From IMG/VR virus record IMGVR_UViG_3300028392_001993, positions 64,001 to 128,000 of that record: 64,000 bases of DNA; one strand, written 5' to 3'. Positions 11,004 through 39,853 of the stretch are shown in pieces (the first letter of the stretch is position 1; each line of letters starts with the position of its first letter). Made by a program: the position numbers and the translations under genes. The DNA comes from a virus. A model generated the notes under the pieces. It was not told the origin of the DNA. It saw only the letters and a program-made list of their open reading frames with translations, and made no database searches.

Positions 11004-11330
11004 ATGGCGATAACACACAATGAACAACCAGAACATTGGCAGCCTGCAATGACCAAAATCATTGATGGGCAACCAGTACGTTTCCGTGACGTATGCGTAC
11101 ACGAAATACGCATGGGCGATGTAGAAGATCCAGATCTATTTGTAGCCGAACCAATGTGGAAGTGGCAAGAATCAGATGCTGGTAAATTCATTATGAAAAC
11201 TGCTGTGGACAAGCCTTACTGGACTCGCGGCATGGATCCGCACAGTTATGGACACATGTATCGAATTGTGGCCAGACTCAGCGAACAAAATGAAACATTC
11301 TGGCGACTCAAATGGGGAAATAATAAATGA
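11004..11330 (+). CDS. Conserved phage hypothetical protein
   Basis: VHEIRMGDVEDPDLFVAEPMWKWQESDAGKFIM; ATG 11004 preferred. Confidence 0.7.
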   Translation: MAITHNEQPEHWQPAMTKIIDGQPVRFRDVCVHEIRMGDVEDPDLFVAEPMWKWQESDAGKFIMKTAVDKPYWTRGMDPHSYGHMYRIVARLSEQNETFWRLKWGNNK

Positions 11331-12298
11331 GTAAATTTTTAGTAACAGGCGGTATGGGTCTAATTGGCCACAATGTAGTACAACGGCTAGAAGCCAAGGA
11401 TCACGAAGTTGTGATTGTGGACATCATGACCAACTACGGTATTATTCCACAAGACGAACTCGAGTACTTGTTGGACGAGCGACGCAAGAAGATCCGGACT
11501 CAGGACATATATCGCACTGATATATCTGATGCGTGGACATTTGATCGTGCAGTAGAGAATCACAAGCCTGATGTGATCATACACATGGCAAGTTTTCCGC
11601 GCCAGAAAGTTGTGAATGCCAACCCTGCCTGGGGTGCCAGAGTCATGACGGAAGGTTTGATCAATGTTTGCGAGAGTGCCAAAAAGCACGGTGTAGAGCG
11701 TGTGGTGTACATATCTAGTAGCATGGTATATGGAGACTTTGAAGATCAAGTACTAGAAGATCATGATTGCAAACCCATTGGTCAGTATGGTATTATGAAA
11801 CTCGCAGGAGAAGATATTGTTAAAGATTATCATCGTCGCAATTGTTTTGATTATTGCATTATTCGTCCCAGTGCTGTGTATGGGCCCTTGGACGTTGAAG
11901 ACCGAGTGGTTGCAAAGTTCATGTTGGCCGCCATGCGTGGCAACACACTACAAGTTAACGGTGCAGGAGAGACCCTGGACTTCACCTACGTAGATGATGC
12001 CGCGGATGGTATTGTTGCGGCAGCCACACGTATCATGAGTGCCAACAAAACATTCAACATTACCAAATCACACTCAGTAAGTTTGTTAGAAGCCGCAGAA
12101 ATGATTGTTAAGATTGTGGGCCGGGGCACCATTGAGTGTCGTGATAAGGATGCAGACTTCCCTTCACGCGGTGCCTTAAATATCGATCGTGCAAGGACTA
12201 TACTGAGCTTTGATCCCAAAGTAGACGTAGAACAAGGATTTAAAAATTACTACAACTGGCTTGACAATTCCCCATACTGGTCTAAGAAAACAGTATAA
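11327..12298 (+). CDS. NAD-dependent NDP-sugar epimerase/dehydratase (extended SDR)
   Basis: TGGMGLIG Rossmann motif, SSSMVYG, YGIMK (YxxxK), RPSAVYGP, DFTYVDD. Confidence 0.93.
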   Translation: MSKFLVTGGMGLIGHNVVQRLEAKDHEVVIVDIMTNYGIIPQDELEYLLDERRKKIRTQDIYRTDISDAWTFDRAVENHKPDVIIHMASFPRQKVVNANPAWGARVMTEGLINVCESAKKHGVERVVYISSSMVYGDFEDQVLEDHDCKPIGQYGIMKLAGEDIVKDYHRRNCFDYCIIRPSAVYGPLDVEDRVVAKFMLAAMRGNTLQVNGAGETLDFTYVDDAADGIVAAATRIMSANKTFNITKSHSVSLLEAAEMIVKIVGRGTIECRDKDADFPSRGALNIDRARTILSFDPKVDVEQGFKNYYNWLDNSPYWSKKTV

Positions 12299-13349
12299 CA
12301 CTCTCCGTACGGAGATCCTGGACACAACAGATGAAGTGTTACGTTCAGGTGTTCTCATGGCGGGCAACTATACTGCTGAGTTTGAAAACTGGCTGGCTCG
12401 GAAGAATCATGTGAGTTATGCAGTGACCTGTCACTCAGGCACACAAGCACTAGAGATTCTGGCCAGTTACTATCGTGATCCAACTGCGCATGAATTAGGT
12501 AATCTCATATCTCCCACAGTGATTGTTCCTGCGCTGACTTATCCAGCCACAGCCAATGCTTTTTTACGTGCAGGTTGGCAAGTCATAATTGGAGACACTG
12601 ACTACTACGGTCAACTTGACGTGAAAAAGATGATCAATGACTTGGACACACACTATCATGCTGTGTGTGCCGTGGGCTTGTATGGTGCAGCCTTGCGTGA
12701 CATGCGGCCAGTTCAAAGTCGAGCCGTCCTGATCGAAGATGCGGCCCAACACTGGTTAAGTAATGGGTGTAAGAGACAAGGTGATTCTACTGCTATCAGT
12801 TTTGATCCTACCAAGAACTTGGCCAACTATGGCAACGGTGGTGCAATTGTGTCAGATGATAGAAATCTACTGGACTATGCTAGAAACTGGGCAAACAATG
12901 GCAAACACACCGGTCACATGGAAACAGGATCAAACTCCAGAATGAGTGAGACAGACTGTGCTCAAATGATGGTCAAAACTAGATACATAGATGCTTGGCA
13001 GAAACGTCGAAGTGAAATAGCCGCACACTGGATCGAACTGTTTAAGAAGCGTAATGTTCGTACACTAATCGATGACAGCAACTTCAAGGATCATGCTTAT
13101 CACAAGTTTGTGATTGAAGTAGACAATCGCGACGAAGTTCAAAAGCAAATGAACATACGCAAGATTGAAACCAAAATACACTATGCTGATCCCTTGTGGG
13201 ACTTGCCGGCATACGAAGGTATGGGGCAGGGAGATATTTTTAGTGCGGCCTATGCACTGAGCCGACGTTGTTTGAGTTTACCTATCTACCCCGAACTTAC
13301 AGATCTAGAAGTAGAATACATCAGCGATCAGTTGTTAGAGATCGTTTGA
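12261..13349 (+). CDS. DegT/DnrJ/EryC1/StrS PLP-dependent sugar aminotransferase
   Basis: HSGTQAL, TYPATANA, IEDAAQ, SFDPTKNL (PLP Lys), GSNSRMSE, LSLPIYPEL; TTG start overlapping the epimerase. Confidence 0.92.
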   Translation: MTIPHTGLRKQYNTLRTEILDTTDEVLRSGVLMAGNYTAEFENWLARKNHVSYAVTCHSGTQALEILASYYRDPTAHELGNLISPTVIVPALTYPATANAFLRAGWQVIIGDTDYYGQLDVKKMINDLDTHYHAVCAVGLYGAALRDMRPVQSRAVLIEDAAQHWLSNGCKRQGDSTAISFDPTKNLANYGNGGAIVSDDRNLLDYARNWANNGKHTGHMETGSNSRMSETDCAQMMVKTRYIDAWQKRRSEIAAHWIELFKKRNVRTLIDDSNFKDHAYHKFVIEVDNRDEVQKQMNIRKIETKIHYADPLWDLPAYEGMGQGDIFSAAYALSRRCLSLPIYPELTDLEVEYISDQLLEIV

Positions 13350-15717
13350 CAAACGCATAACTGGCCAGCCACGCCCACTCATAACTTTTCTTGAGTGCCT
13401 CAAAGTCCCCACCAACTTCTTCATAGTACTCCACAGCATCCTGGGCACCTTTTGAACTCCACTCACCTGCACCGTGGTCTACCTCAAGCCATTGCTTTAA
13501 TCTGTATTCATTTTCCACATCTGGCAAACTGGCTCGTAGTTTAAGTGCTTCACGGAATGCTGTGCGCCAAGCAACCCAGTTTGAGGTATAGTATATGGCT
13601 TCACCTGATAGTATGGGCACCACTTCATGTGCTTGGTCCAGTGTAAAGTCCAGACCCTGACCTATATTCTCCAATACCAACTTCTTATTGTAAGCAATCA
13701 TGCCTTGATGACCATATTCAAGATCATTAATGGTGTTTTTGGCATGAAAGATATAGTGCTTGGCTTGTTGCATACGATCAGGTTGCCACGACCAATCAAA
13801 GTGTTGATTTACTCGCAGTTTAGCAAACACTGCGAAGAACCAGGGTGTGGTACTGAGTTGGGCTGCCGCATGGTACGCTGCCACACGGCCTGACACACCA
13901 TCTGACCAGTGTATGTGATTGGGAACATGTCTAGCCACAGTTTCCAACCAACTGTATAATTCAATGGCATCTTTCTCTCCATTGCTGATAAACACAATGT
14001 CCAGTGGTTGATCGTTATCTTTGCGATGTGTTCGATCTATGTAAGGATAATCATACAACTGTGTCTTGATATAAGGAACTGCTGTTTTAGGAACAATCAC
14101 ACTGGTAGCGCCCTCACTAAGTGGCACAATAGTTTTAACATTCTCTCTCCACAACGGAACTGTGACCAAGTTACCCGACACACAGTCAGTGTTAGTAAAC
14201 AACGCAAGTGGTCCTGCCCAATCTTGCGTACGAACTGCTTCTGCTTGGCTGTCAAAGGTGTGTTCAACAATAGGCATAGGTTTGCGCGATACACTAGTAT
14301 TCACAAAGTTTACATCATACCATTCCAACAAGGCTTTGCGACTACCGTATTCAGCAAAGGTAGGAACGTGCATATAGAAGGTGTCCCCAAACTTTTGTTC
14401 GTCACTAGCAAACACATGCAACATGGTGGCTTGCCATTGTTCAGGGTGCCAACTGAAATCAAATTCACTGTAATCGCAAATGCTTGAGCATACCCAAACA
14501 AACTCATACTTGCCTAACAAGTTATTTGCCAAACGAACCAGTGTGTCTCTATAATTGTCAAAATATCTTACACATTTTATTGTGTTAGGTATTTGTCCAG
14601 CATTGCCATCCAAGTGATCAATTTCTACAATCACTGCTGATGTTGAATCAACTTTGATTTTTATCTGTTCAACATATTTTGTTTCTGTAGCGCCAGGCAC
14701 AGTATACACCGGACCACCTGTGCGCTGGTGCTGTGTTCCAAACTGATATATGTAAGGTGGTTCTGTAGCATCAGGGTGCCAAGTCCAATCAAAACTCAAA
14801 GTATCAGCACCGATTGGTATGGTCCAGTTGTTATCAGTACTAACTTTGGTTGTGCGCGGATATGAAATATATTTTATTTCTGTTGCGCCCGGAACAATAT
14901 ATACAGGACCACCTGTGCGCTGATGTTGTGTTCCAAACTGATATATGTAAGCAGTATCGCCCGGATCTGGCACCCAGGAATAGTTTACTGTTGCAGGATC
15001 TATGTTGTCAGGTACTGACCATCTAGTGGTGTCAGAAAATAATTTAGCAGTTGGCCAACGCACATATTTTCGTTCTGTTGCGCCCGGTACACGATATTCC
15101 ACAGTAGGCATTTTTTCTGCTGGCCACCATTGATTGCCAAACACATAGATGTAAGGAGGATCTCCAGGGTCAGGAACCCAACTGTAATCCATGTCGCTTT
15201 CGACCACATTGTACCAAGGTCGATTGGGGTTCTCAGCCAACTCGGCTCGCGGACGATCCATGTACTTGCGTTGTGTGGCGCCGGGTACTGTGTATTCTAC
15301 TGTGGGCATTTTCTCTGCAGGCCACCACTGATTACCAAACACATAGATGTAAGGCGGGTCATGTGGATGTGGTGCCCAGGTATAATCAAACTCAACCCTA
15401 TCAATCAAAGTATCAAACTCAACAGGTATGGCTCGATTTGGAATAATTTTTTTATGAAAGTGATATTTGATCTCTCCCGAACGTGGTACAAGGTATGTGC
15501 CTGAGTATTCATGATGTTGGTTGGGCCATACATGTGTATAGTCACTTTGCCAAGGCACAGGTTGAAAATCCCAATCGTGTGTGTTATAATCAGCTAAGTA
15601 TGTTATCCACCAAAAATACCTGGTGCGACTCAAACTTTGAGCGTGTTCTATACTGTCGGCCTCACGCTCGTGTGCAAATTGATTGGGTTTAATTCCCGAA
15701 TAGAAAACGTCAAACAT
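13321..15717 (-). CDS. Multi-module glycosyltransferase-like (GT-A) protein with four internal ~66-aa repeats
   Basis: C-terminal domain (LDIVFISNGE...GVSGRVAAYHAAAQLSTTPWFFAV...YGHQG...AWRTAFREALKL) parallels ORF 36735..37661. Confidence 0.6.
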   Translation of the reverse strand: MFDVFYSGIKPNQFAHEREADSIEHAQSLSRTRYFWWITYLADYNTHDWDFQPVPWQSDYTHVWPNQHHEYSGTYLVPRSGEIKYHFHKKIIPNRAIPVEFDTLIDRVEFDYTWAPHPHDPPYIYVFGNQWWPAEKMPTVEYTVPGATQRKYMDRPRAELAENPNRPWYNVVESDMDYSWVPDPGDPPYIYVFGNQWWPAEKMPTVEYRVPGATERKYVRWPTAKLFSDTTRWSVPDNIDPATVNYSWVPDPGDTAYIYQFGTQHQRTGGPVYIVPGATEIKYISYPRTTKVSTDNNWTIPIGADTLSFDWTWHPDATEPPYIYQFGTQHQRTGGPVYTVPGATETKYVEQIKIKVDSTSAVIVEIDHLDGNAGQIPNTIKCVRYFDNYRDTLVRLANNLLGKYEFVWVCSSICDYSEFDFSWHPEQWQATMLHVFASDEQKFGDTFYMHVPTFAEYGSRKALLEWYDVNFVNTSVSRKPMPIVEHTFDSQAEAVRTQDWAGPLALFTNTDCVSGNLVTVPLWRENVKTIVPLSEGATSVIVPKTAVPYIKTQLYDYPYIDRTHRKDNDQPLDIVFISNGEKDAIELYSWLETVARHVPNHIHWSDGVSGRVAAYHAAAQLSTTPWFFAVFAKLRVNQHFDWSWQPDRMQQAKHYIFHAKNTINDLEYGHQGMIAYNKKLVLENIGQGLDFTLDQAHEVVPILSGEAIYYTSNWVAWRTAFREALKLRASLPDVENEYRLKQWLEVDHGAGEWSSKGAQDAVEYYEEVGGDFEALKKSYEWAWLASYAFVKRSLTTDR
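14690..15390 (-). repeat. Four tandem coding repeats (A,A,B,B) with periods of 198, 204 and 195 bp
   Basis: PPYIYVFGNQWWPAEKMPTVEYxVPGAT twice (anchors 15336 and 15138); YIYQFGTQHQRTGGPVYxVPGATE twice (anchors 14934 and 14739). Confidence 0.9.
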
Positions 15718-16855
15718 GATTAGAATAGATGAACTTTACAACAACACCCTCTGGCCCTGGATTAGAAAAAATAGGCCTGGGTTTAGAGAATTTTTTTGCG
15801 AACCGTTTGGTCGAAGTGATCCAGACAGTGTAATGAACTATGGTAGTGATGATGGACATGAACACAATTATATATTCTTTTTTGACCAAGAGCCAATACA
15901 TTTGAACATACACACCGCTACTTTTAAAAAAATTGCCACATTAAATGAGGATATTACCAATCTTACAAAAAAAATTAAACACCCTGGGCAGTTTGGATAT
16001 CTTTGTACCAGCGAGAGCGACAGTGAAAATGTGGAAATAATATGCAAACAATTTGACTGGCGGCCTTTGTACTATTTCTTTCATGGTTGGGCCGCGCTGG
16101 ATTGGTATCGGGGTTATGACAAAACATTTTTAATAACTCCGCTGGCTGAACGCAAAATAACTCGAACCTTTGTCGCACCCAATCGTATCATTGCAGGCGA
16201 GCGCCAACACAGACTAGAAATGTTGTATCACATATTTAAAAATTGCATGACCCATAATCATATCAGTTGCCCTGCTGTGTGTCCCGTAGAAAATATAAGC
16301 ATACACAATGCAATCAAACCTTTGATATCTAAGTATCCTGACATTGAACAAGTTTTTGCACAACAAACACTACCAATTAACTTTGCAGGCGAAACAGATC
16401 ATCCCATGCATTCATGCTGGCTAAGTTTGTTCGATGAGTCAGCAGAAAGTTTGTTGTACTTGGTTACAGAAACTGTGGCCACAGGACGTAGGCATCACAT
16501 AACAGAAAAAACATTCAAACCCATAGCCCTGGGAATGCCGTTTGTGATTGTAGGCACTCAAGGCAGTTTGGAATATCTTCGCAGTTATGGGTTTCGTACA
16601 TTCGAAGGCATATGGGATGAAAGTTATGATCAGGCTGATGATTCAGTACGTATAGAACGCATTGCCAGTTTATTGCGTAGTCTAGATGAATTGCCTATTG
16701 AGGCCAAACAAGATCTGTTTGATCAAGCACAACAAGTGATTGAGCACAATTGGAATCATTTTTATAACGGCGGGTTCGAAGCCGTGCTGTGGACGGAACT
16801 ACAGGAGATGTTGAATGGTATTGACACTAATAGCGGATCGCATAGTCCAAGGTAA
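15716..16855 (+). CDS. GT10 (alpha-1,3-fucosyltransferase)-like glycosyltransferase, paralogue 1
   Basis: YLVTET...HITEKTFKPIALGMPFVIVG...GFRTF...WDESYD resembles the GT10 nucleotide-sugar-binding motif. Confidence 0.55.
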   Translation: MIRIDELYNNTLWPWIRKNRPGFREFFCEPFGRSDPDSVMNYGSDDGHEHNYIFFFDQEPIHLNIHTATFKKIATLNEDITNLTKKIKHPGQFGYLCTSESDSENVEIICKQFDWRPLYYFFHGWAALDWYRGYDKTFLITPLAERKITRTFVAPNRIIAGERQHRLEMLYHIFKNCMTHNHISCPAVCPVENISIHNAIKPLISKYPDIEQVFAQQTLPINFAGETDHPMHSCWLSLFDESAESLLYLVTETVATGRRHHITEKTFKPIALGMPFVIVGTQGSLEYLRSYGFRTFEGIWDESYDQADDSVRIERIASLLRSLDELPIEAKQDLFDQAQQVIEHNWNHFYNGGFEAVLWTELQEMLNGIDTNSGSHSPR

Positions 16856-20036: not shown

Positions 20037-20631
20037 GGTCACCTGGACGATGCCAAGTTGGTTGGATGTGTAGGTGTTTGTGATATAATTTTATATCCTG
20101 ATCTAGGAAGTTTTTTGCCAAATATCCGCGGGCTTCTGGGTATTGTAGTTTAAGGTCATCTAATTGCATTCTCATTGCCTTTTTGTCTTCACCTGCTGTC
20201 CACAGGCGCGGTATATCTTGTGTGATTTGAACTCCGTGTGCATCTAAGAAATTTTTCACTAGTTGTTCATATTTGTAATAACGTTGATCTATAATAAAAA
20301 AAGTAGTTCGATCTAGTATACTGGCAGGAATCATTTGACTAACACTATAACTGTGTTCATCAAACACCGCACTCACAAACAACTTGTTAACACTGGGATT
20401 GTCAAGCAATTCTCGTTGCTGAGTTCTACACAAATATTCCACCACTCCCATGGTATGTCGTTTTTGGGGGTCGCGCAACAATCCAAAAAACTTTAATTGT
20501 GCAAGGTCCACAGTGGGTTTGAATAGATCTTCTTTGATCCATCCTAGATTGTCAAACACATGCTGCCAAGTGGTACAGGCGTTTTTAGCAATAGATATCC
20601 AAGCAAGACGGTTGTTGTGATGAAAGTACAT
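20026..20631 (-). CDS. Sulfotransferase family 2-like protein
   Basis: ISIAKNACTT (5'-PSB-like) and LRDPQKR (3'-PB-like). Confidence 0.6.
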   Translation of the reverse strand: MYFHHNNRLAWISIAKNACTTWQHVFDNLGWIKEDLFKPTVDLAQLKFFGLLRDPQKRHTMGVVEYLCRTQQRELLDNPSVNKLFVSAVFDEHSYSVSQMIPASILDRTTFFIIDQRYYKYEQLVKNFLDAHGVQITQDIPRLWTAGEDKKAMRMQLDDLKLQYPEARGYLAKNFLDQDIKLYHKHLHIQPTWHRPGDPKP

Positions 20632-24147: not shown

Positions 24148-24245
24148 TTATAGATAAATGGATCTCGTTTGCGTAGTTCTCGTAGTTTCTTACGATAGCG
24201 TATTTCTAGAGTGATTCTTGACCAAAATCGTTTAATCCAGTTCAT
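24144..24245 (-). CDS. 33-aa basic micro-protein
   Basis: MNWIKRFWSRITLEIRYRKKLRELRKRDPFIYK*; ATGA overlaps at both ends; not in the ORF track. Confidence 0.75.
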   Translation of the reverse strand: MNWIKRFWSRITLEIRYRKKLRELRKRDPFIYK

Positions 24246-34086: not shown

Positions 34087-34105
34087 ATTTTAAACTCGGA
34101 TTGAT

Positions 34106-34945
34106 TTATTTTAAAGTAACAAAGTTCACATGATTTATTACAGAGCCAGGTTGTGTGTTGGGACATTGGCCACACTGCACATGCGGTTTTCCAAAATTAT
34201 CGATAAATTCTAAGAGATCTGAATCGGAGCAATCAGGGGTTAGCCCGGGCACAATATAAGGTGTCCATTGGTTGTAATTATGCGCGGCAACTCTGGTCAC
34301 TGTTTCATCTAATAGACCCGAGGTACTGCACTTGTATATCTTGCCATTGTGTAACAATGGACAAGTTTGTTGAATACATTTATCAAATGCTGTCATTGGG
34401 TCTGAGTTCCATGGCAACATATTATTATAATCATTGCGATATGTTTTGATAAACGTATCAGGACGTTTAACATGGAATCTAAAATTATTGTCAGTGACCC
34501 ATCTGTCTATGCCAAATTCATGTACCGGAGTCCATGCGTATCTTTTTGATATAGTGTCGATTATGCCATTGAGTTCAGGAGTGTCGACATGAACAGTAAT
34601 TTTAAAACTAACATTTCCTAGTTCATACATCAGATCAACGAGTTTTTGATTTTTGGCTAATAATAATCCATTTGTTGTAAATCTAATTTGTGAATTAGGG
34701 AGTAACTGTCTCAGCCCAATCAGCCACTCTTTGCATTCTGGATTGATCAATGGTTCGCCGCCAATGATGCCAAACTCGGGCAACTCAATTCGACTCAACC
34801 AAGCAGAAATCCACTGCTGTCCTTGCTCCCAGGATACGTAGCCTGAATGTTTTAAGTCGCTGTAGTTTGTACAACCCAAGCAAGACAGATTACATACCTG
34901 TGTAATCATGGTCTCTAAGAAAGGCAATGTCATCTTAGGTGACAT
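34106..34945 (-). CDS. Radical SAM enzyme 8 (N-terminal CX3CX2C, C-terminal SPASM-like Cys cluster)
   Basis: CNLSCLGC; GGEPL; TTNGLL; C-terminal CIQQTCPLLHNGKIYKC...CGQCP; start at 34945 or 34933. Confidence 0.88.
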   Translation of the reverse strand: MSPKMTLPFLETMITQVCNLSCLGCTNYSDLKHSGYVSWEQGQQWISAWLSRIELPEFGIIGGEPLINPECKEWLIGLRQLLPNSQIRFTTNGLLLAKNQKLVDLMYELGNVSFKITVHVDTPELNGIIDTISKRYAWTPVHEFGIDRWVTDNNFRFHVKRPDTFIKTYRNDYNNMLPWNSDPMTAFDKCIQQTCPLLHNGKIYKCSTSGLLDETVTRVAAHNYNQWTPYIVPGLTPDCSDSDLLEFIDNFGKPHVQCGQCPNTQPGSVINHVNFVTLK

Positions 34946-35915
34946 TATCAAAGTCCTCAAATTTCATTGTTAAAAATCTTTGATAATTATGTTCCAGTAC
35001 TGATTGCATATCATTGTACATCTTGTTCAATTCAGTGATACTCATGCTTGCAAGATAATTTAACACTTTTTTAATTTCAGTTTGGCTATATAGATATGGA
35101 TCTTGATCGTATCCTTCGTCCCACCATTGGTCAAATGTTTTAAATCCCAGTTGTTTCAAACGTTGTAACATGTACTGCGGGCCTTGAATTATGAAGGGAG
35201 TTTTGGTTGTGACAGATCTCCAAAACTTTTCAGTAAGAAAAAATACGTTTCCATTGCTAAATGTTTCACACACAACATCAACAAAAATATTTTTATACCA
35301 ATCACAAATCTCAATTATTGCATTTTCATTGACAATTGGATAGGAGTGTTTTTCACTGAATCTAATAGGAGCCTGGTTAATTAAATTTAATGCTTCCAGA
35401 TACTCATCACTTTGTACTCCAAAATAATATATTATATCTTCAAGTCCTAGATGCACACGATGAAATTCATTACCTGGTTCAAAATGGTATGTTAATAAAG
35501 TTTTGTCAGCATAATTGGTCCAGAGATGACTAGACATAATCAATCTAGTAATATTGCTTCGTCCAACAAAACATCCAAAGTGTTTTTGTATTTGTTTTTC
35601 TTTAGAAATGGATCTATTCAATTTCTGAAACAATTTTAATTCATACATCCAGGATGGGTGTTTAACTACACGAAATCTATCATAGTTTTCTAGAATATTT
35701 CCTGTATGAATTTCAATTTGATTGTAATCTATACCACTATCTGCTAGATAATCTAGCACGTTTTTTAATTCTGTTGTGGAAATATCAGGTGCCTCAAGTT
35801 GAAAATCAATTATTATGTTACCGTGCTGTGCAAGTTTATGTGCAATTTCGGTAGCAGTTGTTTCAACATTCCATATTCGACTGTCCCCGCTCTTGACAAG
35901 AATTCTATTAGACAT
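34935..35915 (-). CDS. GT10-like glycosyltransferase, paralogue 4 (divergent, AT-rich)
   Basis: FGCFVGRSNITR...DVVCET...FLTEKFWRSV...PFIIQG...GFKTF...WDEGYD. Confidence 0.55.
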   Translation of the reverse strand: MSNRILVKSGDSRIWNVETTATEIAHKLAQHGNIIIDFQLEAPDISTTELKNVLDYLADSGIDYNQIEIHTGNILENYDRFRVVKHPSWMYELKLFQKLNRSISKEKQIQKHFGCFVGRSNITRLIMSSHLWTNYADKTLLTYHFEPGNEFHRVHLGLEDIIYYFGVQSDEYLEALNLINQAPIRFSEKHSYPIVNENAIIEICDWYKNIFVDVVCETFSNGNVFFLTEKFWRSVTTKTPFIIQGPQYMLQRLKQLGFKTFDQWWDEGYDQDPYLYSQTEIKKVLNYLASMSITELNKMYNDMQSVLEHNYQRFLTMKFEDFDNVT

Positions 35916-36741
35916 GACTGATTCCCTCGCACAACGTTAGTTTTTTAGTTGTTTCTATTGTTCTAAATTCTTTAAAAACATATTGATATTCCCAATCATT
36001 GGTTTGCTCCGTCGGCCAATGCAAACTCATCCATTGATTTAACAATGTATAGGCTTGATCTTTTGGTATAGACAATCCAAAGAATTTTTCCAGGTAGTCA
36101 ATAAGGTCGGGCCATCGTTCGGGCCAAATAATTAACTCCAATGGCATAACTGGCAATTTGCTCCGATTGAGTATGCGACGTCTTTCTCGAACTTTATCGT
36201 AAAAATTGCAGAGGTTAACAGTGACCCAGATTTCTTCTCCGTAGGCCTGTTTAAATTTTTCAATGTCGTTCTCATCTTGAAAAGTAAAATTAAACATTCT
36301 ACCAGCACCATATTTCATAGTGTATGCTCTGATTTGCCAATTCAATCCAAACATTGTGGTGGGTGCTATGGACAATAATTTTACATAATCAACTTGATTA
36401 AGATCCAATGCAGTATTATGGTCCATTAAATCAAGAATAAAGTGTTGTTGTTCTATAATTTTTTCTAGTTGTTGGTTTAATGGAATTAGTCCTGGGACTC
36501 TAGGATCTCCGAGATCCATGCTGATACCGTGATCAGTGTATTGCTTTAAACGATATTCACATCTGAACCAATCTCGATAATTGGTTGGATACAGATATTT
36601 CATTAGATAATCCAGGCGAGACATTCCTTGTAAATTTACCGGAAAAAACACAGACTCATCTAATAGACAAATATTTTTTGATATATTTTTGGCGGCCCCG
36701 ATGTCAGCATGTAGCACTAGAATTTGTTTGGACATTACCAA
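35908..36741 (-). CDS. Hypothetical protein (AT-rich)
   Basis: 277 aa; operonic overlaps. Confidence 0.6.
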   Translation of the reverse strand: MVMSKQILVLHADIGAAKNISKNICLLDESVFFPVNLQGMSRLDYLMKYLYPTNYRDWFRCEYRLKQYTDHGISMDLGDPRVPGLIPLNQQLEKIIEQQHFILDLMDHNTALDLNQVDYVKLLSIAPTTMFGLNWQIRAYTMKYGAGRMFNFTFQDENDIEKFKQAYGEEIWVTVNLCNFYDKVRERRRILNRSKLPVMPLELIIWPERWPDLIDYLEKFFGLSIPKDQAYTLLNQWMSLHWPTEQTNDWEYQYVFKEFRTIETTKKLTLCEGISHV

Positions 36742-37661
36742 CCTTCTTGCTGACGGATCACATCAATTTCTCTAGTCATGATACCACGGTTCTGCCAATT
36801 TGATTTGTAGTGATGTTTGAAGAATTTACTTTGCTCGTATTCCAACATAGCAAGAGGCAGGTCTAGTGTTGTGCCCAGTTCTTCGGCCATTCTATTGGCT
36901 AGTAATCTTGGATCAGAGTCTTTCACAGTGTCCCACAGGTCACGTAGTTTTTCAAAGTCCTGTACCATGATATGATCTACATTGGTCAGCATGGTCATAT
37001 ATGTGCCCATACGGCTTCCGGCAATGCACCACATGCCGTTTTCAACATCTGTACCCACATTGTGCCATATGGTCAAGTTATCTAGATTGCGTTGATGCAC
37101 ACGTTGTTTAAAGTCTTGAATAGTGGGCCTAGCACCTTTGTTAAGACACATCTTAACACCTTCACGGAAGCCGGCACGCCAGGCGTGAAAAGGTGATTGG
37201 TTGGGATATGTTGTTGAGTAGCAGTCGTGCATGGCCCAATACATAGGGTCAAAACAAAACTCTACCACAGTTTCATCACTTCCGTCTGTATTCTCGTGTG
37301 TTTGCATATTCATCACGTGCGTTCGGGTCCACGACGATAAGCCGCCATTGCCGTACATGAGTCCGTTCACATGGTTACGAGCTCGCCATCGGAACACAGC
37401 CCGCTCATGTTCAGGTGTAGGAAAATCAAGCGTTTGGTTAAAAAACGCCGGATCGGGTATATTGTCTCCATCAATGAGGATAAATCGTTCAGTGCCAGAA
37501 GCCAAGGCCGCGGCTTTGTGTGCCGCATCGCTTCCTAATACACCATCCACACGCTTGGCCCAAGGCACCATGTTCCGAATGCGGATCCAATATTCTTCTT
37601 TTTCAGGTTCATCATATGATAGGTAAATGCAGTCTAAATCTGCAATGTCAATCGGATTCAT
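36735..37661 (-). CDS. GT-A-fold glycosyltransferase-like protein
   Basis: LDCIYLSYDEP, AHKAAA, FILIDGDN (DxD), YGNGG, AWRAGFREGVKM. Confidence 0.65.
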   Translation of the reverse strand: MNPIDIADLDCIYLSYDEPEKEEYWIRIRNMVPWAKRVDGVLGSDAAHKAAALASGTERFILIDGDNIPDPAFFNQTLDFPTPEHERAVFRWRARNHVNGLMYGNGGLSSWTRTHVMNMQTHENTDGSDETVVEFCFDPMYWAMHDCYSTTYPNQSPFHAWRAGFREGVKMCLNKGARPTIQDFKQRVHQRNLDNLTIWHNVGTDVENGMWCIAGSRMGTYMTMLTNVDHIMVQDFEKLRDLWDTVKDSDPRLLANRMAEELGTTLDLPLAMLEYEQSKFFKHHYKSNWQNRGIMTREIDVIRQQEGW

Positions 37662-37980
37662 AAGTTTTCATACTCCATCTTTGGTGTGGTTCTGATTCAG
37701 GCACTACTATGGCCACGTTGTCGGGATAGCAAGGTGTGCCTGTATCTGCGGGTGCCAGTCTGCGTACAACCGGTTTCAATTCAATCAAGCGGCCATCTCG
37801 CACTCGAACATTCCGGGGCGATCGGGCATAGGTTTCGGCATCAACATCAATATATGTACCAGGTAGCTCTTCCATGCTGTAAGTTATTGGCTCACCTGCT
37901 TCATTGTGGTACAAGCGCCACGATACCGGGCTGGGCTCGGGCATGGCATGCAAAATTGCCCAGAATTCATCGGGGGTCAC
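37648..37980 (-). CDS. Conserved hypothetical protein
   Basis: RLYHNEAGEPITYSMEELPGTYI. Confidence 0.65.
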   Translation of the reverse strand: MTPDEFWAILHAMPEPSPVSWRLYHNEAGEPITYSMEELPGTYIDVDAETYARSPRNVRVRDGRLIELKPVVRRLAPADTGTPCYPDNVAIVVPESEPHQRWSMKTYESD

Positions 37981-38755
37981 GGCGCCATTCCTTTACATTG
38001 TAATGAAATGCACCATGTTGCATTATGGTGTTTACTCGTAATTCATAATCACGATATTCACAGATCAGTTCATCCACCCAAGGATCTCGCTTGGCAGCAA
38101 TAATGTGTCGCTTCATGTGTATAATTGTGGGATATCTAGCAAATGGCAAAGTGCAATTTTCTGGGCCAATGATGGTGGCCGCAATAGCATACACTACATC
38201 AGTTGATGGCGCTTGTTCGGGGAACTTTAACATAGCACGATAGTGCGGCCAGTTTTCAAATATATTGCGTACTGTCACAAAGAACTCTTGTGCTGTTGCG
38301 CTCAGGCGCCAATAGGTAATGGCATTGTACACATCTGGCAGGTTGTTGGCATCAAACACTTGTCTATAGTGTCTGGCACTGGCCCGGCGGTCTTTCCAAT
38401 CTCTGCAGCCAGTTGATACTACTACATCGCGATGACGCAACAAGTTCCACCAATGATCAATAGGACTGGTAATCAGCATATCTGCTTCTAGTTTGATTGT
38501 TTCACGGAATGGTGTGGCGTCGAACACTTGCCAGTCGTTGGCATAGGGATTGGCAGTATCGATAGGAAACGGGAACTCACGCACGTAATCAAACAACGGA
38601 CCAGTACCCACCGGCTCGTTGGTTAGTAAACAGATTTTTGCATCCGGGTGCCAGTATTTGATTGTTTTGGCCAGGGTCTCACTGCAATTCACGTAGTCTG
38701 TGTTTTGAGTATTGGTTGCTACTATCAAATAGCCTTTTTCTTCAACGGGTTTCAA
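37967..38755 (-). CDS. GT8-like (GT-A) glycosyltransferase
   Basis: GYLIVA, TPFRETIKLEADML, LPDVYNA, STD, IIHMK. Confidence 0.65.
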   Translation of the reverse strand: MKPVEEKGYLIVATNTQNTDYVNCSETLAKTIKYWHPDAKICLLTNEPVGTGPLFDYVREFPFPIDTANPYANDWQVFDATPFRETIKLEADMLITSPIDHWWNLLRHRDVVVSTGCRDWKDRRASARHYRQVFDANNLPDVYNAITYWRLSATAQEFFVTVRNIFENWPHYRAMLKFPEQAPSTDVVYAIAATIIGPENCTLPFARYPTIIHMKRHIIAAKRDPWVDELICEYRDYELRVNTIMQHGAFHYNVKEWRRDPR

Positions 38756-39548
38756 TTATTTTCTCCAGATGTCGTTTGCCCATGGCATGAAAGTCTTGAT
38801 TGCGTATGGTGGTCCAGCGGGGTCGTTTGTCTTGATCTTGATAATCTATTCTGTAACAATCCTTGCTGGTTCTAGTTACAGTATGTTCAGGCGTAACACT
38901 GGCCAAGGCCCAGGGTATGCTAGAGTATTCTAGTGTTTGTCCGTTTACAATTGTAAGTGCTATACTCAGTGCGTAGTCATTGCGAAACATCGAGCCCGGC
39001 ATTTGGTATAGATCTTTATAGTGGCGCCAGTTGTTCTTGATCATTTGCATGCAGTCAAATATCAACTGGGCGTGATCACTACGTCTAAACATCATGACCG
39101 TGGCCCAACTCATAGGCATGTTGTACTCACCATACGCATTAAGGCCCACAAAGTTGTCTCGCCCAGTCAAGTCATATGCACCAGCATGCGCCAAAAAATC
39201 TTGGTTGCTATCTAATACAATCTTTAACTGATCGCTGGCTACCACATAGTCAGCATCTAGTACTAGGGTTTGATCCCATGGGGAAAGAGTATAGGCATCA
39301 GTTCTACCTGCATTGTGCCACGTAACAGTCGCCTGATAATCCTCAAACCAACGTGTTCCTCCTGAGGCAGCCGTTGCCGGAATAACTCTATCGAATCCAC
39401 CAACTCTTGGATCTCTTGCGCCAACGTCTGTGACGATGGCAGTAGGTATGTTGAGGTGCCTACGAATGTTTCGAGCACTCCACTCAGCCATAGCAACGTA
39501 GTCGGTTGATTCATTGTTAAAAGCAAATATCAGTGCACCAGTGGTCAT
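38742..39548 (-). CDS. GT8-like (GT-A) glycosyltransferase
   Basis: GALIFAFNN, SPWDQTLVLDADY (DxD), WATVMMF, RNDYALS, DFHAMGK. Confidence 0.7.
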   Translation of the reverse strand: MTTGALIFAFNNESTDYVAMAEWSARNIRRHLNIPTAIVTDVGARDPRVGGFDRVIPATAASGGTRWFEDYQATVTWHNAGRTDAYTLSPWDQTLVLDADYVVASDQLKIVLDSNQDFLAHAGAYDLTGRDNFVGLNAYGEYNMPMSWATVMMFRRSDHAQLIFDCMQMIKNNWRHYKDLYQMPGSMFRNDYALSIALTIVNGQTLEYSSIPWALASVTPEHTVTRTSKDCYRIDYQDQDKRPRWTTIRNQDFHAMGKRHLEKIIETR

Positions 39549-39853
39549 CGGTTCTTGTTGAGGTTTTCGTGTTCTACACGCCAGGCGTTCATTTGTTCTT
39601 GCCAGCGTTCGTGTGACCGGGCAAATAGTTCAGGCACGTTTACCCGCACAGGAGTTTCATACAGGTCTAACAGTACAACATCCGTGTCTTGGGCACAGGC
39701 CAACAGCACACATTGCAGTTCTGATCCGGCTCGCCACATACCACCTGCGTGAGCAAACAACATCCGGGCCTCGTATTTTTCTTTTAGGGTGCGCCGTGCA
39801 GCCGCATGATCGAATCGAGCCCGTGCGTGAGCCACAAGTTTTTCAGTTTCCAT
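39545..39853 (-). CDS. Hypothetical protein, first gene of the minus-strand tailoring operon
   Basis: ATG 39853 (METEKLVAHARARFDH...), 6 nt after a -10 box. Confidence 0.65.
   Translation of the reverse strand: METEKLVAHARARFDHAAARRTLKEKYEARMLFAHAGGMWRAGSELQCVLLACAQDTDVVLLDLYETPVRVNVPELFARSHERWQEQMNAWRVEHENLNKNR

What the first reader, a model, noticed from the sequence alone, without database searches (positions are those of the whole stretch)
11327..39853. A ~28-kb phage-encoded glycan-building and radical-SAM tailoring supercluster next to the tail/baseplate operon
Seen in sequence: about 28 contiguous, mostly translationally coupled genes, including an NDP-sugar epimerase/dehydratase, a DegT aminotransferase, an amidinotransferase, a NodU/TobZ carbamoyltransferase, sulfotransferase-like and SGNH-like proteins, four GT10-like and four GT-A-like proteins, and eight radical SAM enzymes. 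None shows an obvious signal peptide or multi-TM architecture, and there is no flippase, polymerase or exporter. Established: these families make and decorate amino-sugars, and some phages glycosylate their virions. Inference: this is a cytoplasmic pathway that builds a complex modified glycan (amino, amidino, carbamoyl, sulfo, radical-rearranged) and attaches it to a phage substrate. The most likely substrate is the neighbouring virion proteins (immune or protease shielding, host range); phage DNA or a small molecule are alternatives. I know of no characterised phage pathway with this combination and this number of radical SAM enzymes.
Basis: partly seen in the sequence, partly recalled or inferred. 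Interest (0 to 1): 0.92.

Follow-up and report, generated by a model that had tools for sequence, protein, structure and literature searches.

The report
Jumbo-phage radical-SAM sugar-tailoring island
An uncultured freshwater giant phage carries, right behind its tail-fibre genes, a real and widely conserved 28-kb block of soluble sugar-building, sugar-transferring and iron-sulfur "radical SAM" enzymes that most likely makes a heavily decorated amino-sugar coat; its product and target have never been studied.

Summary
The cluster is real. Window 11327-39868 holds 28 tightly packed ORFs plus a 33-aa microprotein gene. HMM, profile or fold searches confirm an NDP-sugar SDR, a DegT 4-aminotransferase, an AGAT/StrB1-type amidinotransferase, a NodU/TobZ-type carbamoyltransferase, eight radical SAM enzymes (six pass the cut-off of the uncharacterised family NF033640, N-terminal Twitch) and four paralogous GT-B-fold proteins. 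The GT-A/GT8-like calls rest on weak evidence. The sulfotransferase-like and SGNH-like calls could not be confirmed.

About 19 genes form a core kept in the same order in complete ~345-353-kb relatives and in more than 200 IMG/VR contigs. About nine genes are strain-specific inserts.

No ORF has a membrane segment. Complete relatives lack a phosphoglycosyl transferase, a Wzx flippase, a sugar nucleotidyltransferase and a ThyA-type hydroxymethylase. This fits a cytoplasmic pathway fed by host NDP-sugars and argues against T4-style DNA glycosylation.

New here: the microprotein ends in an invariant DPFIY. It travels with the carbamoyltransferase and an unknown 345-aa family even in distant clusters. 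It looks like a membrane-less version of bacterial SxtK/DUF5989 "tyrosine-shuttle" microproteins.

The acceptor, with virion fibres as my best guess, remains inferred. This scan found the same island before on at least 11 other genomes.

The parts
11327..12298 (+). NDP-sugar SDR (4,6-dehydratase/4-epimerase type); core gene
   Evidence: Pfam Epimerase 1.4e-43. NCBIfam best is dTDP-glucose 4,6-dehydratase at 121.8 bits, below the equivalog cut-off. 72-81% identical in complete relatives.
12261..13349 (+). DegT/PseC/WecE-type PLP sugar 4-aminotransferase; core gene
   Evidence: Pfam DegT 6.7e-57. NCBIfam PseC 1.5e-39 and WecE-type 2.8e-27. Present in all 5 records searched.
13321..15717 (-). 798-aa repeat protein. 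It has at least four DYSWxPDP..PYIY modules and a C-terminal domain homologous to 36735-37661 with the DxD lost. Core gene of variable length.
   Evidence: Translation. hhalign to A6 gives probability 83%, E 9e-6, over residues 571-778. Homologues are 737-1784 aa long. No Pfam or PHROG hit.
15716..16855 (+). GT-B-fold glycosyltransferase-like paralogue 1; core gene
   Evidence: AF2 pLDDT 79. Foldseek finds GT-B enzymes at probability 0.99-1.0. VIA Z is 10.5 for T4 BGT, 9.9 for T4 AGT, 9.0 for FUT11 and 8.9 for alpha1,3-FucT.
16815..17996 (+). GT-B-like paralogue 2; core gene
   Evidence: BLASTP to paralogue 1 gives 5.8e-14. Conserved in relatives.
17983..19020 (+). L-arginine-dependent amidinotransferase (AGAT/StrB1/HsvA/SxtG family). 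It is the most conserved core gene, with median identity 87%.
   Evidence: Profile A3 against PDB: AGAT 5e-24, with the catalytic Cys and His boxes aligned. Conservation.
18969..20036 (+). Radical SAM with N-terminal SPASM (generic); accessory gene
   Evidence: Pfam Radical_SAM 2.6e-15 and SPASM 4e-06, N-terminal. Found in few relatives.
20026..20631 (-).
   Evidence: No Pfam, PHROG or PDB hit. Present in 3 of about 160 loci.
20633..21925 (-). N_Twi radical SAM; accessory paralogue
   Evidence: NF033640 229 bits. Its best matches in the complete relatives are only 24-26% identical and fall on loci better matched by other radical SAM genes.
21895..22668 (-).
   Evidence: Sequence motif only. 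No Pfam, NCBIfam or PDB hit.
22669..24147 (-). NodU/CmcH/TobZ-type carbamoyltransferase; core gene
   Evidence: Pfam Carbam_trans_C 2.9e-48 and Carbam_trans_N 3.3e-34. 65-75% identical in relatives.
24144..24245 (-). 33-aa basic microprotein ending DPFIYK, with ATGA overlaps at both ends; core gene. It looks like a TM-less SxtK/DUF5989-like tyrosine microprotein.
   Evidence: ORF. Conserved in 109 loci with an essentially invariant C-terminal half. Also present in the distant clusters L196 and L197. Bacterial DUF5989 proteins end APFIYTLF next to carbamoyltransferase homologues. The PF19451 HMM gives no hit.
24242..25279 (-). 345-aa protein of an uncharacterised family (a barrel plus an inserted helical bundle with conserved His/Glu); core gene
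   Evidence: AF2 pLDDT 80. No Foldseek hit. VIA gives Z about 8 to cyclophilin-like barrels, which is borderline. 654 representative clusters and no Pfam family in 52 members. Distant members again sit beside N_Twi radical SAMs, a carbamoyltransferase or an amidinotransferase.
25272..29018 (-). Three tandem N_Twi radical SAM genes (25272-26567, 26548-27759, 27756-29018); core genes
   Evidence: NF033640 276.7, 331.5 and 386.7 bits against a cut-off of 170. 62-82% identical in relatives.
29011..30347 (-). Two accessory ORFs (238 and 210 aa) in a low-GC insert; unknown function
   Evidence: No significant hits. Present in 3-6 loci only. GC 0.396.
30355..31827 (-). N_Twi radical SAM; core gene
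   Evidence: NF033640 286 bits. 67-68% identical in relatives.
31679..32719 (-). GT-B-like paralogue 3; core gene
   Evidence: BLASTP to paralogues 1 and 2 gives 4e-11 and 6e-12. 41-44% identical in relatives.
32719..34086 (-). N_Twi radical SAM; core gene
   Evidence: NF033640 322 bits. 68-73% identical in relatives.
34106..36741 (-). Low-GC accessory insert: a short radical SAM (34106-34960), GT-B-like paralogue 4 (34935-35915) and a 277-aa unknown (35908-36741)
   Evidence: Pfam Radical_SAM 6.6e-11. BLASTP gives 8.5e-17. GC 0.354. Rare or absent in relatives.
36735..37661 (-). 308-aa DxD protein (GT-A/GT2-like lead only); core gene
   Evidence: IDGDN box in consensus A6. The nearest ESM Atlas clusters are viral, and one is auto-named GT2-like. 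No Pfam or PDB hit. More than 8000 close metagenomic homologues.
37648..37980 (-). 110-aa conserved unknown; core gene
   Evidence: Found in 71 loci at median identity 51%. No hits.
37967..39548 (-). Two paralogous GT8-like (glycogenin/NleB-like) proteins (37967-38755 and 38742-39548); core genes
   Evidence: BLASTP between the paralogues gives 9e-10. Profile A7 against PDB hits glycogenin at E 0.12 and NleB at 0.6 over the DxD region, which is only suggestive.
39545..39868 (-). 107-aa conserved unknown, the first gene of the minus-strand operon
   Evidence: Found in 58 loci at median identity 65%. No hits.
39871..39896 (-). Terminator-like 11-bp stem-loop with a T-run, followed by a TGTATAA box, between the structural operon and the island
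   Evidence: A stem-loop plus T-run folded in all 25 gap sequences printed, out of 40 distinct ones, with different stem sequences.
39913..40902 (-). 329-aa protein with 24.6% Thr, the last gene of the tail-fibre/baseplate operon. A candidate acceptor by inference only.
   Evidence: Composition. Adjacency kept in G001, G003, G005 and L198.

Best explanation
This is a self-contained, cytoplasmic sugar-tailoring and glycosylation island of an abundant freshwater lineage of ~350-kb myophages distantly related to Atu_ph07 and the Rak2-like jumbo phages.

Proposed pathway:
1. A host NDP-hexose is converted by the SDR and the DegT enzyme into an NDP-4-amino-4,6-dideoxy-type sugar.
2. The amidinotransferase turns an amine into a guanidino group, with L-arginine as donor.
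3. The carbamoyltransferase adds a carbamoyl group. It works with the coupled 33-aa DPFIY microprotein, which may be a soluble tyrosine shuttle or an obligatory subunit, and with the unknown 345-aa protein.
4. Five core N-terminal-Twitch radical SAM enzymes carry out radical edits (dehydration, epimerisation, oxidation, decarboxylation or C-C chemistry) on nucleotide-linked or already transferred sugars.
5. Three core GT-B-fold enzymes and three GT-A/GT8-like enzymes assemble the product directly on a macromolecular acceptor made during infection. Tail fibres or other virion proteins are the most likely acceptor.

Shown: enzyme families, folds, conservation, solubility, and the absence of lipid-carrier machinery. 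Inferred: every substrate, the order of steps and the acceptor.
For: - Families and folds.
- Paralogue groups.
- Co-inheritance: same gene order in three 97-100% complete relatives, and more than 215 related IMG/VR stretches.
- Soluble proteins only.
- No Bac_transf, Wzx or NTP_transferase in four complete relatives and the own record.
- Among solved radical SAMs, the nearest by profile are those acting on nucleoside or nucleotide substrates: BlsE 3.3e-05, viperin 4e-05, MoaA.
- In Bacteroidota chromosomes the same radical SAM family occurs as clustered paralogues among GDSL, GT2, GT11, polysaccharide deacetylase, methyltransferase and carbamoyltransferase genes.
- The module of N_Twi radical SAM + 345-aa family + carbamoyltransferase/microprotein or amidinotransferase recurs in distant contigs at 25-50% identity.
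- The island stays next to the fibre genes even in the more distant relative L198.
- A 24.6% Thr protein is the immediate neighbour.
- An independent isolate, cyanophage S-SCSM2R, carries DegT + radical SAM + amidinotransferase + many GTs, and one of its amidinotransferases was detected in the virion proteome (PMC12801897; annotation).
Against: - No member of NF033640 has a known reaction, so a sugar substrate for these enzymes is inference.
- Only one of the seven or eight GT-like proteins was modelled. The GT-A/GT8 calls rest on E 0.12 and a language-model lead.
- A conserved terminator-like hairpin separates the island from the structural operon, so co-expression with virion genes is not implied.
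- The invariant microprotein tail and the Trp/Tyr/Pro-rich repeat protein could mean that a peptide or protein, and not a sugar, is what the radical SAM enzymes modify.
- No virion, product or expression data exist for this lineage.
Confidence: 0.4

Rival explanations
1. The pathway is centred on a peptide. The 33-aa DPFIY microprotein, and/or the PYIY repeat modules of the 798-aa protein, is the true substrate or primer. Radical SAM enzymes would crosslink or edit its aromatic tail. GT8-like enzymes would glycosylate its tyrosine as glycogenin does. The product would be a RiPP-like glycopeptide or a peptide-derived small molecule.
For: - The microprotein tail is invariant across clusters whose enzymes share only 25-50% identity, as in PqqA- or MftA-type precursors.
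- Most characterised SPASM/Twitch radical SAMs act on peptides, and the NCBIfam side hits are to peptide maturases.
- The repeat protein varies from 737 to 1784 aa.
- The GT8-like pair gives a weak glycogenin match.
Against: - There is one microprotein for five or more radical SAM enzymes.
- It is always coupled to the carbamoyltransferase, not to the radical SAMs.
- Clusters of N_Twi radical SAMs in Bacteroidota and in Vibrio phage K566 have no such peptide.
- The residue after Tyr varies (K, H, R or none).
- No RRE-like or protease/exporter genes were seen.
Confidence: 0.17
2. The island remodels the host envelope. The phage enzymes would make unusual NDP-sugars and transferases that hijack the host's own lipid-carrier, flippase and ligase machinery. 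This would change LPS or capsule during infection, for example to block superinfection or stop progeny re-adsorbing to lysing cells. The same role is commonly proposed for cyanophage LPS-gene islands.
For: - Cyanomyovirus S-SCSM2R has comparable islands that its authors read as cell-surface modification (PMC12801897).
- Bacterial homologues sit in surface-glycan-like contexts.
- The bacterial DUF5989-carbamoyltransferase pairs have membrane microproteins.
Against: - The phage version has lost every membrane element. No ORF has a TM segment and the microprotein lacks the TM helix of DUF5989.
- There is no initiating phosphoglycosyl transferase or flippase.
- Building a many-step glycan on host carriers late in a lytic cycle seems costly.
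Confidence: 0.13
3. The product is a diffusible aminoglycoside- or guanidino-sugar-like small molecule (made by aminotransferase, amidinotransferase, carbamoyltransferase, Twitch radical SAM and GT steps). It would be used to shut down host functions or exclude competing phages.
For: - The enzyme combination parallels streptomycin/bluensomycin and tobramycin logic: StrB1 hit 1.1e-17, a TobZ/NodU-type carbamoyltransferase, and remote hits to the BtrN- and BlsE-type Twitch enzymes.
- The authors of PMC12801897 called the analogous cyanophage genes 'antibiotic synthesis genes'.
Against: - No cyclitol synthase, resistance gene or exporter was found in the window.
- Seven or eight GT-like proteins and a variable repeat protein are more than a small molecule needs.
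- The island is tightly linked to the fibre genes.
Confidence: 0.1
4. The island hypermodifies DNA. The GT-B enzymes would glycosylate phage DNA bases and the other enzymes would decorate the sugar, to evade restriction.
For: - The two best structural matches of the modelled GT-B protein are T4 beta- and alpha-glucosyltransferases (Z 10.5 and 9.9).
- A ThyX-type thymidylate synthase lies 1 kb upstream.
- Phages are known to hypermodify DNA with glycans (reference list of PMC12619734).
Against: - No ThyA-family pyrimidine hydroxymethylase was found in five near-complete or complete relatives or in the own record, so the hydroxymethyl handle used by all known DNA glycosylation is missing.
- The T4 matches are within 1-1.5 Z units of many unrelated GT-B enzymes.
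- The island lies with late structural genes, not with replication genes.
Confidence: 0.07

Closest known systems
NCBIfam NF033640, N_Twi_rSAM ('twitch domain-containing radical SAM protein')
   Same: Six ORFs score 229-387 bits against the 170-bit cut-off over the full 398-position model. They have the CxxxCxxC motif and four conserved N-terminal cysteines.
   Different: The family is only a catalogue entry and I found no characterised member. Here it is expanded to 6 copies in the island and 9 in the 178-kb record, and it sits in a phage.
Virus-encoded autonomous glycosylation: Mimivirus fibril glycan genes (UDP-viosamine/bacillosamine pathways) and mycobacteriophage virion glycosylation (Freeman et al. 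2023, cited in PMC12619734)
   Same: A virus carries its own 4,6-dehydratase, DegT aminotransferase and soluble GTs next to structural genes. No lipid carrier is involved, and a cytoplasmic decoration of virion surface proteins is proposed. The Mimivirus comparison is from my own knowledge.
   Different: Those systems have no radical SAM, amidinotransferase or carbamoyltransferase. In them glycosylated virion proteins were demonstrated, and here nothing is.
Glycan gene islands of T4-like cyanophages, e.g. Synechococcus phage S-SCSM2R (PQ898602; PMC12801897)
   Same: The gene content is similar: NDP-sugar epimerases, several GT families, a DegT-type enzyme, a SkfB/PqqE-type radical SAM and amidinotransferases. 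The amidinotransferase is 29% identical to 17983-19020.
   Different: There is one radical SAM instead of five to eight. The cyanophage region shown annotates many 2OG-oxygenases and no carbamoyltransferase, and no DPFIY microprotein was found there. Its genes are scattered among photosynthesis genes, and its function is equally unknown.
SxtI/SxtJ/SxtK-type carbamoyltransferase cassettes with DUF5989 microproteins, and the DltX/PatA FXYXXF tyrosine acyl-shuttle (PMC12148441)
   Same: A microprotein gene abuts a carbamoyltransferase homologue. The basic N-terminal W..F..RKK region is shared, and so is the P-F-I-Y tail that holds the shuttle tyrosine position.
   Different: The phage peptide has 33 aa instead of 49. 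It has no TM helix and lacks the last two or three residues of FXYXXF. The PF19451 HMM does not detect it. No MBOAT is present, and no SGNH partner occurs in most relatives. Carbamoyl-Tyr has never been shown, even for the bacterial cassettes.
Aminoglycoside tailoring logic (StrB1 amidinotransferase, TobZ carbamoyltransferase, BtrN-type Twitch radical SAM)
   Same: The same enzyme superfamilies occur together.
   Different: There is no aminocyclitol synthase. The Twitch domain is N-terminal, not C-terminal. There are many more GTs, and the setting is a phage structural neighbourhood.

Membership tests
NF033640 N_Twi_rSAM | Whole-protein score above the curated 170-bit cut-off over the full model | tested here: met
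   Scores are 229.3, 276.7, 331.5, 386.7, 286.3 and 321.8 bits for six ORFs. 18969-20036 (31.9 bits) and 34106-34960 (32.6 bits) fail.
NF033640 N_Twi_rSAM | CxxxCxxC SAM cluster plus an auxiliary-cluster cysteine set placed N-terminal to the core | tested here: met
   C140, C144 and C147 are invariant, and so are C32, C51, C93 and C96. The Pfam SPASM hits lie N-terminal to the Radical_SAM hits.
Amidinotransferase (AGAT/StrB1/HsvA/SxtG) | Significant full-length similarity with the catalytic Cys and His boxes conserved | tested here: met
   Profile A3 hits AGAT at 5e-24 and StrB1 at 1.1e-17. The C-terminal GG-x-x-C-x-T-x-D-x-RRRG and the D-G-H-x-D-A box are aligned. Pfam and NCBIfam single-sequence searches were negative.
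NodU/CmcH/TobZ carbamoyltransferase | Both Carbam_trans_N and Carbam_trans_C domains above the gathering scores | tested here: met
   119.3 bits against 24, and 164.1 bits against 27.
dTDP-glucose 4,6-dehydratase (TIGR01181 equivalog) | Score above the equivalog cut-off | tested here: not met
   121.8 bits against 365.1. GalE gives 107 against 262. It is an extended SDR of unassigned specificity.
GT-B glycosyltransferase fold (group 15716-16855 and its paralogues) | Two Rossmann-like domains that match solved GT-B enzymes over the whole chain | tested here: met
   Foldseek probability is 0.99-1.0 to WaaG, SenB, OtsA and BshA. VIA Z is 8-10.5 over residues 1-375. Only one of the four paralogues was modelled.
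CAZy GT10 (alpha1,3-fucosyltransferase) | Sequence-family match or a distinctly best structural match | tested here: inconclusive
   No Pfam hit at E<=10. FUT11, FucT and FUT9 give Z 9.0, 8.9 and 8.3, which is tied with or below the T4 BGT/AGT and GT4-type enzymes.
CAZy GT8 (glycogenin/LgtC/NleB-like) for 37967-38755 and 38742-39548 | Significant match including the DxD region | tested here: inconclusive
   Profile A7 hits glycogenin at E 0.12 and NleB at 0.6-0.8 over the DxD region. No Pfam or NCBIfam hit. Not modelled.
GT-A/GT2-like for 36735-37661 | GT-A fold with DxD | tested here: inconclusive
   A DGD box is conserved. The nearest ESM Atlas clusters are viral and one is auto-named GT2-like. 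The nearest cluster carrying Pfam GT2 scores 0.87. No PDB or Pfam hit. No relation to the GT8-like pair by hhalign.
DUF5989 / SxtK microprotein (PF19451) | HMM match above 27 bits | tested here: not met
   No match in the own record at E<=10. The same model hits 44 of 121 Bacteroidota genomes.
DUF5989 / SxtK microprotein (PF19451) | Gene adjacent to a carbamoyltransferase, and a C-terminal F-x-Y shuttle motif | tested here: met
   The gene overlaps the carbamoyltransferase start by 4 nt. P-F-I-Y is invariant. Bacterial members end A-P-F-I-Y-T-L-F beside carbamoyltransferase homologues in 6 of 6 loci. The final x-x-F and the TM helix are missing.
T4-type DNA glucosylation system | Phage-encoded ThyA-family dCMP/dUMP hydroxymethylase that supplies the acceptor base | tested here: not met
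   PF00303 is absent from the own record and from five 95-100% complete relatives, while controls were positive in 10 of 14 genomes.
Und-P-linked O-antigen/capsule (Wzx/Wzy-type) locus | Initiating phosphoglycosyl transferase and flippase | tested here: not met
   PF02397 and PF01943 are absent from the own record and four complete relatives. WecA-type PF00953 was not searched.
Sulfotransferase / SGNH hydrolase (accessory ORFs 20026-20631, 29715-30347, 21895-22668) | Any family-level sequence match | tested here: inconclusive
   No Pfam hit at E<=10, and no PHROG, NCBIfam or PDB sequence hit. Only short N-terminal motifs were seen by eye. Not modelled.
RiPP cluster (radical SAM/SPASM maturase plus precursor) | A precursor peptide shown or predicted to be the radical SAM substrate, plus an RRE, protease or exporter | not testable with these tools
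   A conserved microprotein exists, but it is coupled to the carbamoyltransferase. No RRE, protease or exporter was detected by Pfam.

The most novel reading that the evidence does not exclude
The island makes a previously unknown class of virion or peptide decoration: a guanidino- and carbamoyl-bearing deoxy-amino-sugar glycan. Five N-terminal-Twitch radical SAM enzymes would rework its sugars, giving the first function for the very large orphan family NF033640. Carbamoylation would run through a soluble tyrosine-shuttle microprotein, a cytoplasmic phage-adapted version of the membrane DltX/SxtK acyl-shuttle principle.
Probability: 0.2. Interest if true: 0.9.

Novelty: new variant of a known kind. 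Interest (0 to 1): 0.72.

Why it matters
Virus-encoded glycosylation is established for giant eukaryotic viruses and for a few phages, but not with radical chemistry.

- This island is conserved in a phage lineage abundant enough that one of its genes has more than 8000 near-identical metagenomic homologues.
- It concentrates an orphan radical SAM family with thousands of members beside enzymes whose chemistry can be assayed.
- Solving one reaction would annotate that family in phages and bacteria alike.
- It could reveal new sugar chemistry, such as guanidino or carbamoyl deoxy-amino sugars.
- It would show how a giant phage shields or targets its fibres.
- The TM-less DPFIY microprotein gives a simple soluble system for testing whether SxtK/DUF5989 proteins are carbamoyl-tyrosine shuttles. 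That idea is currently untested for the widespread bacterial cassettes and for the saxitoxin cluster.

Tried and rejected
- Pfam at E<=10, PHROGs and NCBIfam gave nothing for 17 ORFs.
- Megablast of the island against 50,697 phage records found no match.
- tblastn of a radical SAM found only Vibrio phages K566/K567 and Ralstonia phage RsoM2USA at 23-25% identity. K566 has five such radical SAMs in one cluster but shares nothing else.
- Profile searches of the PDB gave nothing for the GT-B group, 36735-37661 and 24242-25279.
- The ESM Atlas had no usable hit for 24242-25279.
- The model of 24242-25279 gave no Foldseek match and only borderline cyclophilin-like and helical-bundle similarities at Z about 8. 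I do not assign it a fold family.
- A Pfam scan of 52 distant members of that family, including ~750-aa fusions, gave nothing. The N-terminal halves of the fusions match no window protein.
- The search for related loci with the six-paralogue alignment failed because there is no conserved stretch.
- The genome-contig scan found only two phage-like contigs binned in a Haliscomenobacter MAG. That is a host hint at best.
- The homologue search with 36735-37661 returned only close orthologues.
- The 'moraphage' paper (PMC12619734) does not mention radical SAM genes, and I could not link it to this lineage.
- Literature searches for N-terminal SPASM/Twitch radical SAMs in phages or polysaccharide loci found nothing specific.
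- T4-like DNA glucosylation was rejected because no hydroxymethylase is present.
- A lipid-linked export pathway encoded by the phage was rejected.

Full report
**Setting.** The window is bases 64001-128000 of a 178-kb IMG/VR virus record that CheckV rates about 51% complete. Its baseplate wedge protein (57753-61229) matches PHROG 10646 at 4.6e-280. It is 34% identical to that of Agrobacterium phage Atu_ph07 and 31-34% identical to those of the ~350-kb Erwinia, Serratia, Xanthomonas and Escherichia jumbo phages. More than 215 IMG/VR stretches encode orthologues of one island gene at 76-92% identity. Several relatives are complete or nearly so at 342-353 kb, one with terminal repeats. Two such contigs were binned in a Haliscomenobacter (Bacteroidota) MAG. 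That is a weak host hint and may be mis-binning.

- An extended SDR of the NDP-sugar dehydratase/epimerase type. It is nearest to dTDP-glucose 4,6-dehydratase and GalE but below both equivalog cut-offs.
- A DegT aminotransferase nearest to the 4-aminotransferases PseC and WecE.
- A NodU/TobZ-type carbamoyltransferase.
- Eight radical SAM proteins that share the CxxxCxxC motif.
- An amidinotransferase. Pfam and NCBIfam missed it, but a profile of 12 orthologues hits human AGAT at 5e-24 and also HsvA, SxtG and StrB1. The C-terminal catalytic Cys box and the His box are aligned.

Six of the radical SAMs exceed the curated cut-off of NCBIfam NF033640, "N_Twi_rSAM". In this family the auxiliary-cluster (Twitch) cysteines lie N-terminal to the core. 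The whole 178-kb record has nine such genes and eight weaker radical SAM matches. Complete relatives have 11-15 matches each.

**The glycosyltransferase-like genes.**
- All-against-all BLAST defines four paralogues: 15716-16855, 16815-17996, 31679-32719 and 34935-35915. They have no Pfam hit even at E<=10.
- An AlphaFold2 model of the first (pLDDT 79, pTM 0.81) matches GT-B enzymes over its full length. Foldseek probability is 0.99-1.0, and VIA-align Z is 10.5 for T4 beta-glucosyltransferase down to about 8 for many GT4, GT10, GT41 and other families.
- The fold is therefore GT-B. "GT10-like" is one of several tied possibilities.
- The pair 37967-38755 and 38742-39548 gives only E 0.12 to glycogenin and 0.6-0.8 to NleB over the DxD region.
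- 36735-37661 has a conserved DGD box and an ESM Atlas lead to viral clusters, one auto-named GT2-like, but nothing stronger.
- The C-terminal 200 residues of the 798-aa protein are homologous to 36735-37661 (hhalign probability 83%, E 9e-6), and the DxD is replaced.
- The upstream part of that protein is an array of Trp/Pro/Tyr-rich modules, and its homologues vary from 737 to 1784 aa.
Only short N-terminal motifs remain.

**Core and accessory genes.** tblastn against about 160 related loci, and against 60-80 kb taken from each of three complete relatives, shows one conserved order:
ATPase, HNH, ThyX; then SDR, DegT, repeat protein, two GT-B, amidinotransferase, carbamoyltransferase, microprotein, 345-aa unknown, three radical SAMs, radical SAM, GT-B, radical SAM, DxD protein, 110-aa unknown, two GT8-like, 107-aa unknown; then the Thr-rich protein, fibres and baseplate.

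Nine genes are rare or missing in relatives: 18969-20036, 20026-20631, 20633-21925, 21895-22668, 29011-29727, 29715-30347, 34106-34960, 34935-35915 and 35908-36741. Two of these blocks coincide with GC dips (0.354 and 0.396 against about 0.44). The conserved pathway therefore has five N_Twi radical SAMs and three GT-B proteins. The window's eight and four include recent additions.

**Where the pathway runs, and what it is not.**
- No island ORF has a hydrophobic segment reaching 1.6 on a 19-residue Kyte-Doolittle scan.
- The own record and four complete relatives lack Bac_transf phosphoglycosyl transferases, Wzx-type flippases and sugar-1-phosphate nucleotidyltransferases, with positive controls in 9-14 of 14 reference genomes.
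- The enzymes must therefore start from host NDP-sugars and act in the cytoplasm without a phage-encoded lipid-carrier route.
- No ThyA-family hydroxymethylase exists in the own record or in five relatives. This removes the acceptor base used by every known phage DNA glycosylation system. The top structural hits to T4 BGT/AGT are ties with many other GT-B enzymes.

**Clues to the radical SAM substrates.**
- By profile, the nearest solved structures are BlsE (cytosylglucuronate decarboxylase), viperins and MoaA. All act on nucleoside or nucleotide substrates, but the E-values are only about 1e-5 and mostly reflect the common core.
- In a sample of 300 Bacteroidota genomes the family reached the E<=1e-30 search threshold in three chromosomes besides the MAG, two of them above the curated cut-off. 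It always occurred as two to four adjacent paralogues.
- Those paralogues are surrounded by GDSL/SGNH proteins, GT2 and GT11 enzymes, a polysaccharide deacetylase, methyltransferases, PhyH-type oxygenases, a B12-radical SAM and a carbamoyltransferase 30% identical to the phage one.
- This is glycan-tailoring company, not RiPP company.
- A sugar substrate is therefore the better inference, but no member of the family has a known reaction.

**A conserved microprotein module.**
- The 94-nt "gap" between the carbamoyltransferase and 24242-25279 encodes a 33-aa basic peptide (24144-24245) with ATGA overlaps at both ends.
- It is present in all 109 related loci where both flanking genes could be located. 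Its last 15 residues are essentially invariant and end D-P-F-I-Y-K.
- The 345-aa neighbour belongs to a family of 654 representative clusters with no Pfam family and no convincing structural relative.
- Distant members of that family (25-30% identity) lie again beside N_Twi radical SAMs and a carbamoyltransferase (L196, and L197/L198), or beside an amidinotransferase and radical SAMs (L202).
- In L196 and L197 a micro-ORF ending D-P-F-I-Y(-H) sits just upstream of the carbamoyltransferase.
- A lead from earlier notes of this scan pointed to SxtK/DUF5989. I tested it. The PF19451 model does not detect the phage peptide.
- However, bacterial DUF5989 proteins taken from Bacteroidota genomes are 49-aa peptides of the form M..LW.F.K.RKKWW-(TM helix)-APFIYTLF. 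They lie next to carbamoyltransferase homologues in six of six loci.
- The phage peptide keeps the basic head and the P-F-I-Y tail. It has a charged helix in place of the membrane helix and lacks the last residues.
- F-x-Y-x-x-F is the "acyl-shuttle" motif whose tyrosine carries D-alanyl or acetyl groups in DltX and PatA (PMC12148441).
- My reading, which is inference, is that the phage uses a soluble derivative of that device as a carbamoyl-tyrosine shuttle or as an obligatory subunit of the carbamoyltransferase. This matches the loss of all membrane parts in the island.
- The alternative is that the peptide is itself the substrate, a RiPP-like or glycogenin-like primer. I keep this as the main rival.

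**Relation to the structural genes.**
- The island's minus-strand operon starts 44 nt after the stop of a 329-aa protein with 24.6% Thr, which closes the fibre/baseplate operon.
- That gap holds an 11-bp stem-loop with a T-run, followed by a TGTATAA box.
- The 25 gap sequences inspected, of 40 distinct ones from relatives, hold a stem-loop plus T-run with different stem sequences, and several also hold a TGTATAAT-like box.
- The island is therefore probably a transcription unit of its own placed directly behind the structural genes. Adjacency is conserved even in the more distant relative L198, but co-transcription is not implied.
- Virion proteins remain the most plausible acceptor for four reasons: by analogy with Mimivirus fibrils and mycobacteriophage capsids; because the product must be made and used in the cytoplasm; because of the Thr-rich neighbours; and because in cyanophage S-SCSM2R an amidinotransferase from a comparable gene set was found in the virion proteome (PMC12801897).
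- None of this is direct evidence.

**Comparison with what is known, and novelty.**
- Phage and giant-virus glycan gene sets are known. So are the amidinotransferase, carbamoyltransferase, DegT and SDR families.
- Three things are not known: any function for NF033640; any phage pathway combining it with guanidino and carbamoyl chemistry; and any soluble SxtK-like microprotein.
- I therefore class the finding as a new variant of a known kind (a virus-encoded glycan-tailoring island), with a realistic chance of new chemistry.
- The same island was noted and followed up earlier in this scan on at least 11 other genomes with similar conclusions. I did not use those verdicts as evidence.

**Verdict.** Interest is 0.72.

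Noticed in passing
window 43441-57753 (-): A single 4770-aa ORF lies between the fibre genes and the baseplate wedge. It is 50-59% identical over part of its length in complete relatives, and coverage varies (0.27-0.96), which suggests a modular giant fibre or whisker protein.
   Followed up: no
window 10941-11330 (+) and 10310-11212 (-): A conserved 129-aa ORF with one N-terminal hydrophobic segment (KD 2.07) sits immediately upstream of the SDR gene and overlaps it by 4 nt. On the opposite strand a 300-aa homing-endonuclease-like ORF (PHROG 314, 4e-10) overlaps it, but relatives match only 17-23% of its length. It is probably a remnant or a spurious extension.
   Followed up: partly
window 15715-15718: The 798-aa minus-strand gene and the first GT-B gene start back to back within one CATG. 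The repeat-protein gene is the only minus-strand gene inside the plus-strand block, and its 3' end overlaps the DegT gene convergently by 29 nt.
   Followed up: no
window 28000-30400 and 34100-36750: Two GC dips (0.396 and 0.354 against about 0.44) coincide with genes absent from relatives. These are recent insertions of extra radical SAM, GT-B and unknown genes into the conserved island.
   Followed up: partly
P0001-P0046; P0330, P0338, P0342 and others: Natural fusions exist. Proteins of about 820 aa are made of two N_Twi radical SAM units in tandem. Proteins of about 712-775 aa carry the 24242-25279-type domain behind an unknown ~400-aa N-terminal domain that matches nothing in the window or in Pfam.
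   Followed up: partly
L167/L168 (NZ_JBBAKG010000003.1 and ...001.1): Two different contigs of this phage lineage (148 and 183 kb; 91% and 79% identity for one radical SAM) are deposited as part of a Haliscomenobacter sp. MAG. This is either mis-binning or a clue to a Saprospiraceae host.
   Followed up: no
L194 (Vibrio phage K566, OZ196521.1 152-183 kb): An isolated 255-kb vibriophage has five N_Twi-like radical SAM genes clustered among hypothetical proteins. Three are annotated only as 'radical SAM domain-containing protein'. It could serve as a culturable model for the family.
   Followed up: partly
window 5714-7030 (+) and 9670-10338 (+): An HNH endonuclease (PHROG 1314, 2.4e-107) and a ThyX-type thymidylate synthase (PHROG 85, 1.3e-75) lie just upstream of the island. 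No ThyA-type enzyme occurs anywhere in the lineage.
   Followed up: partly
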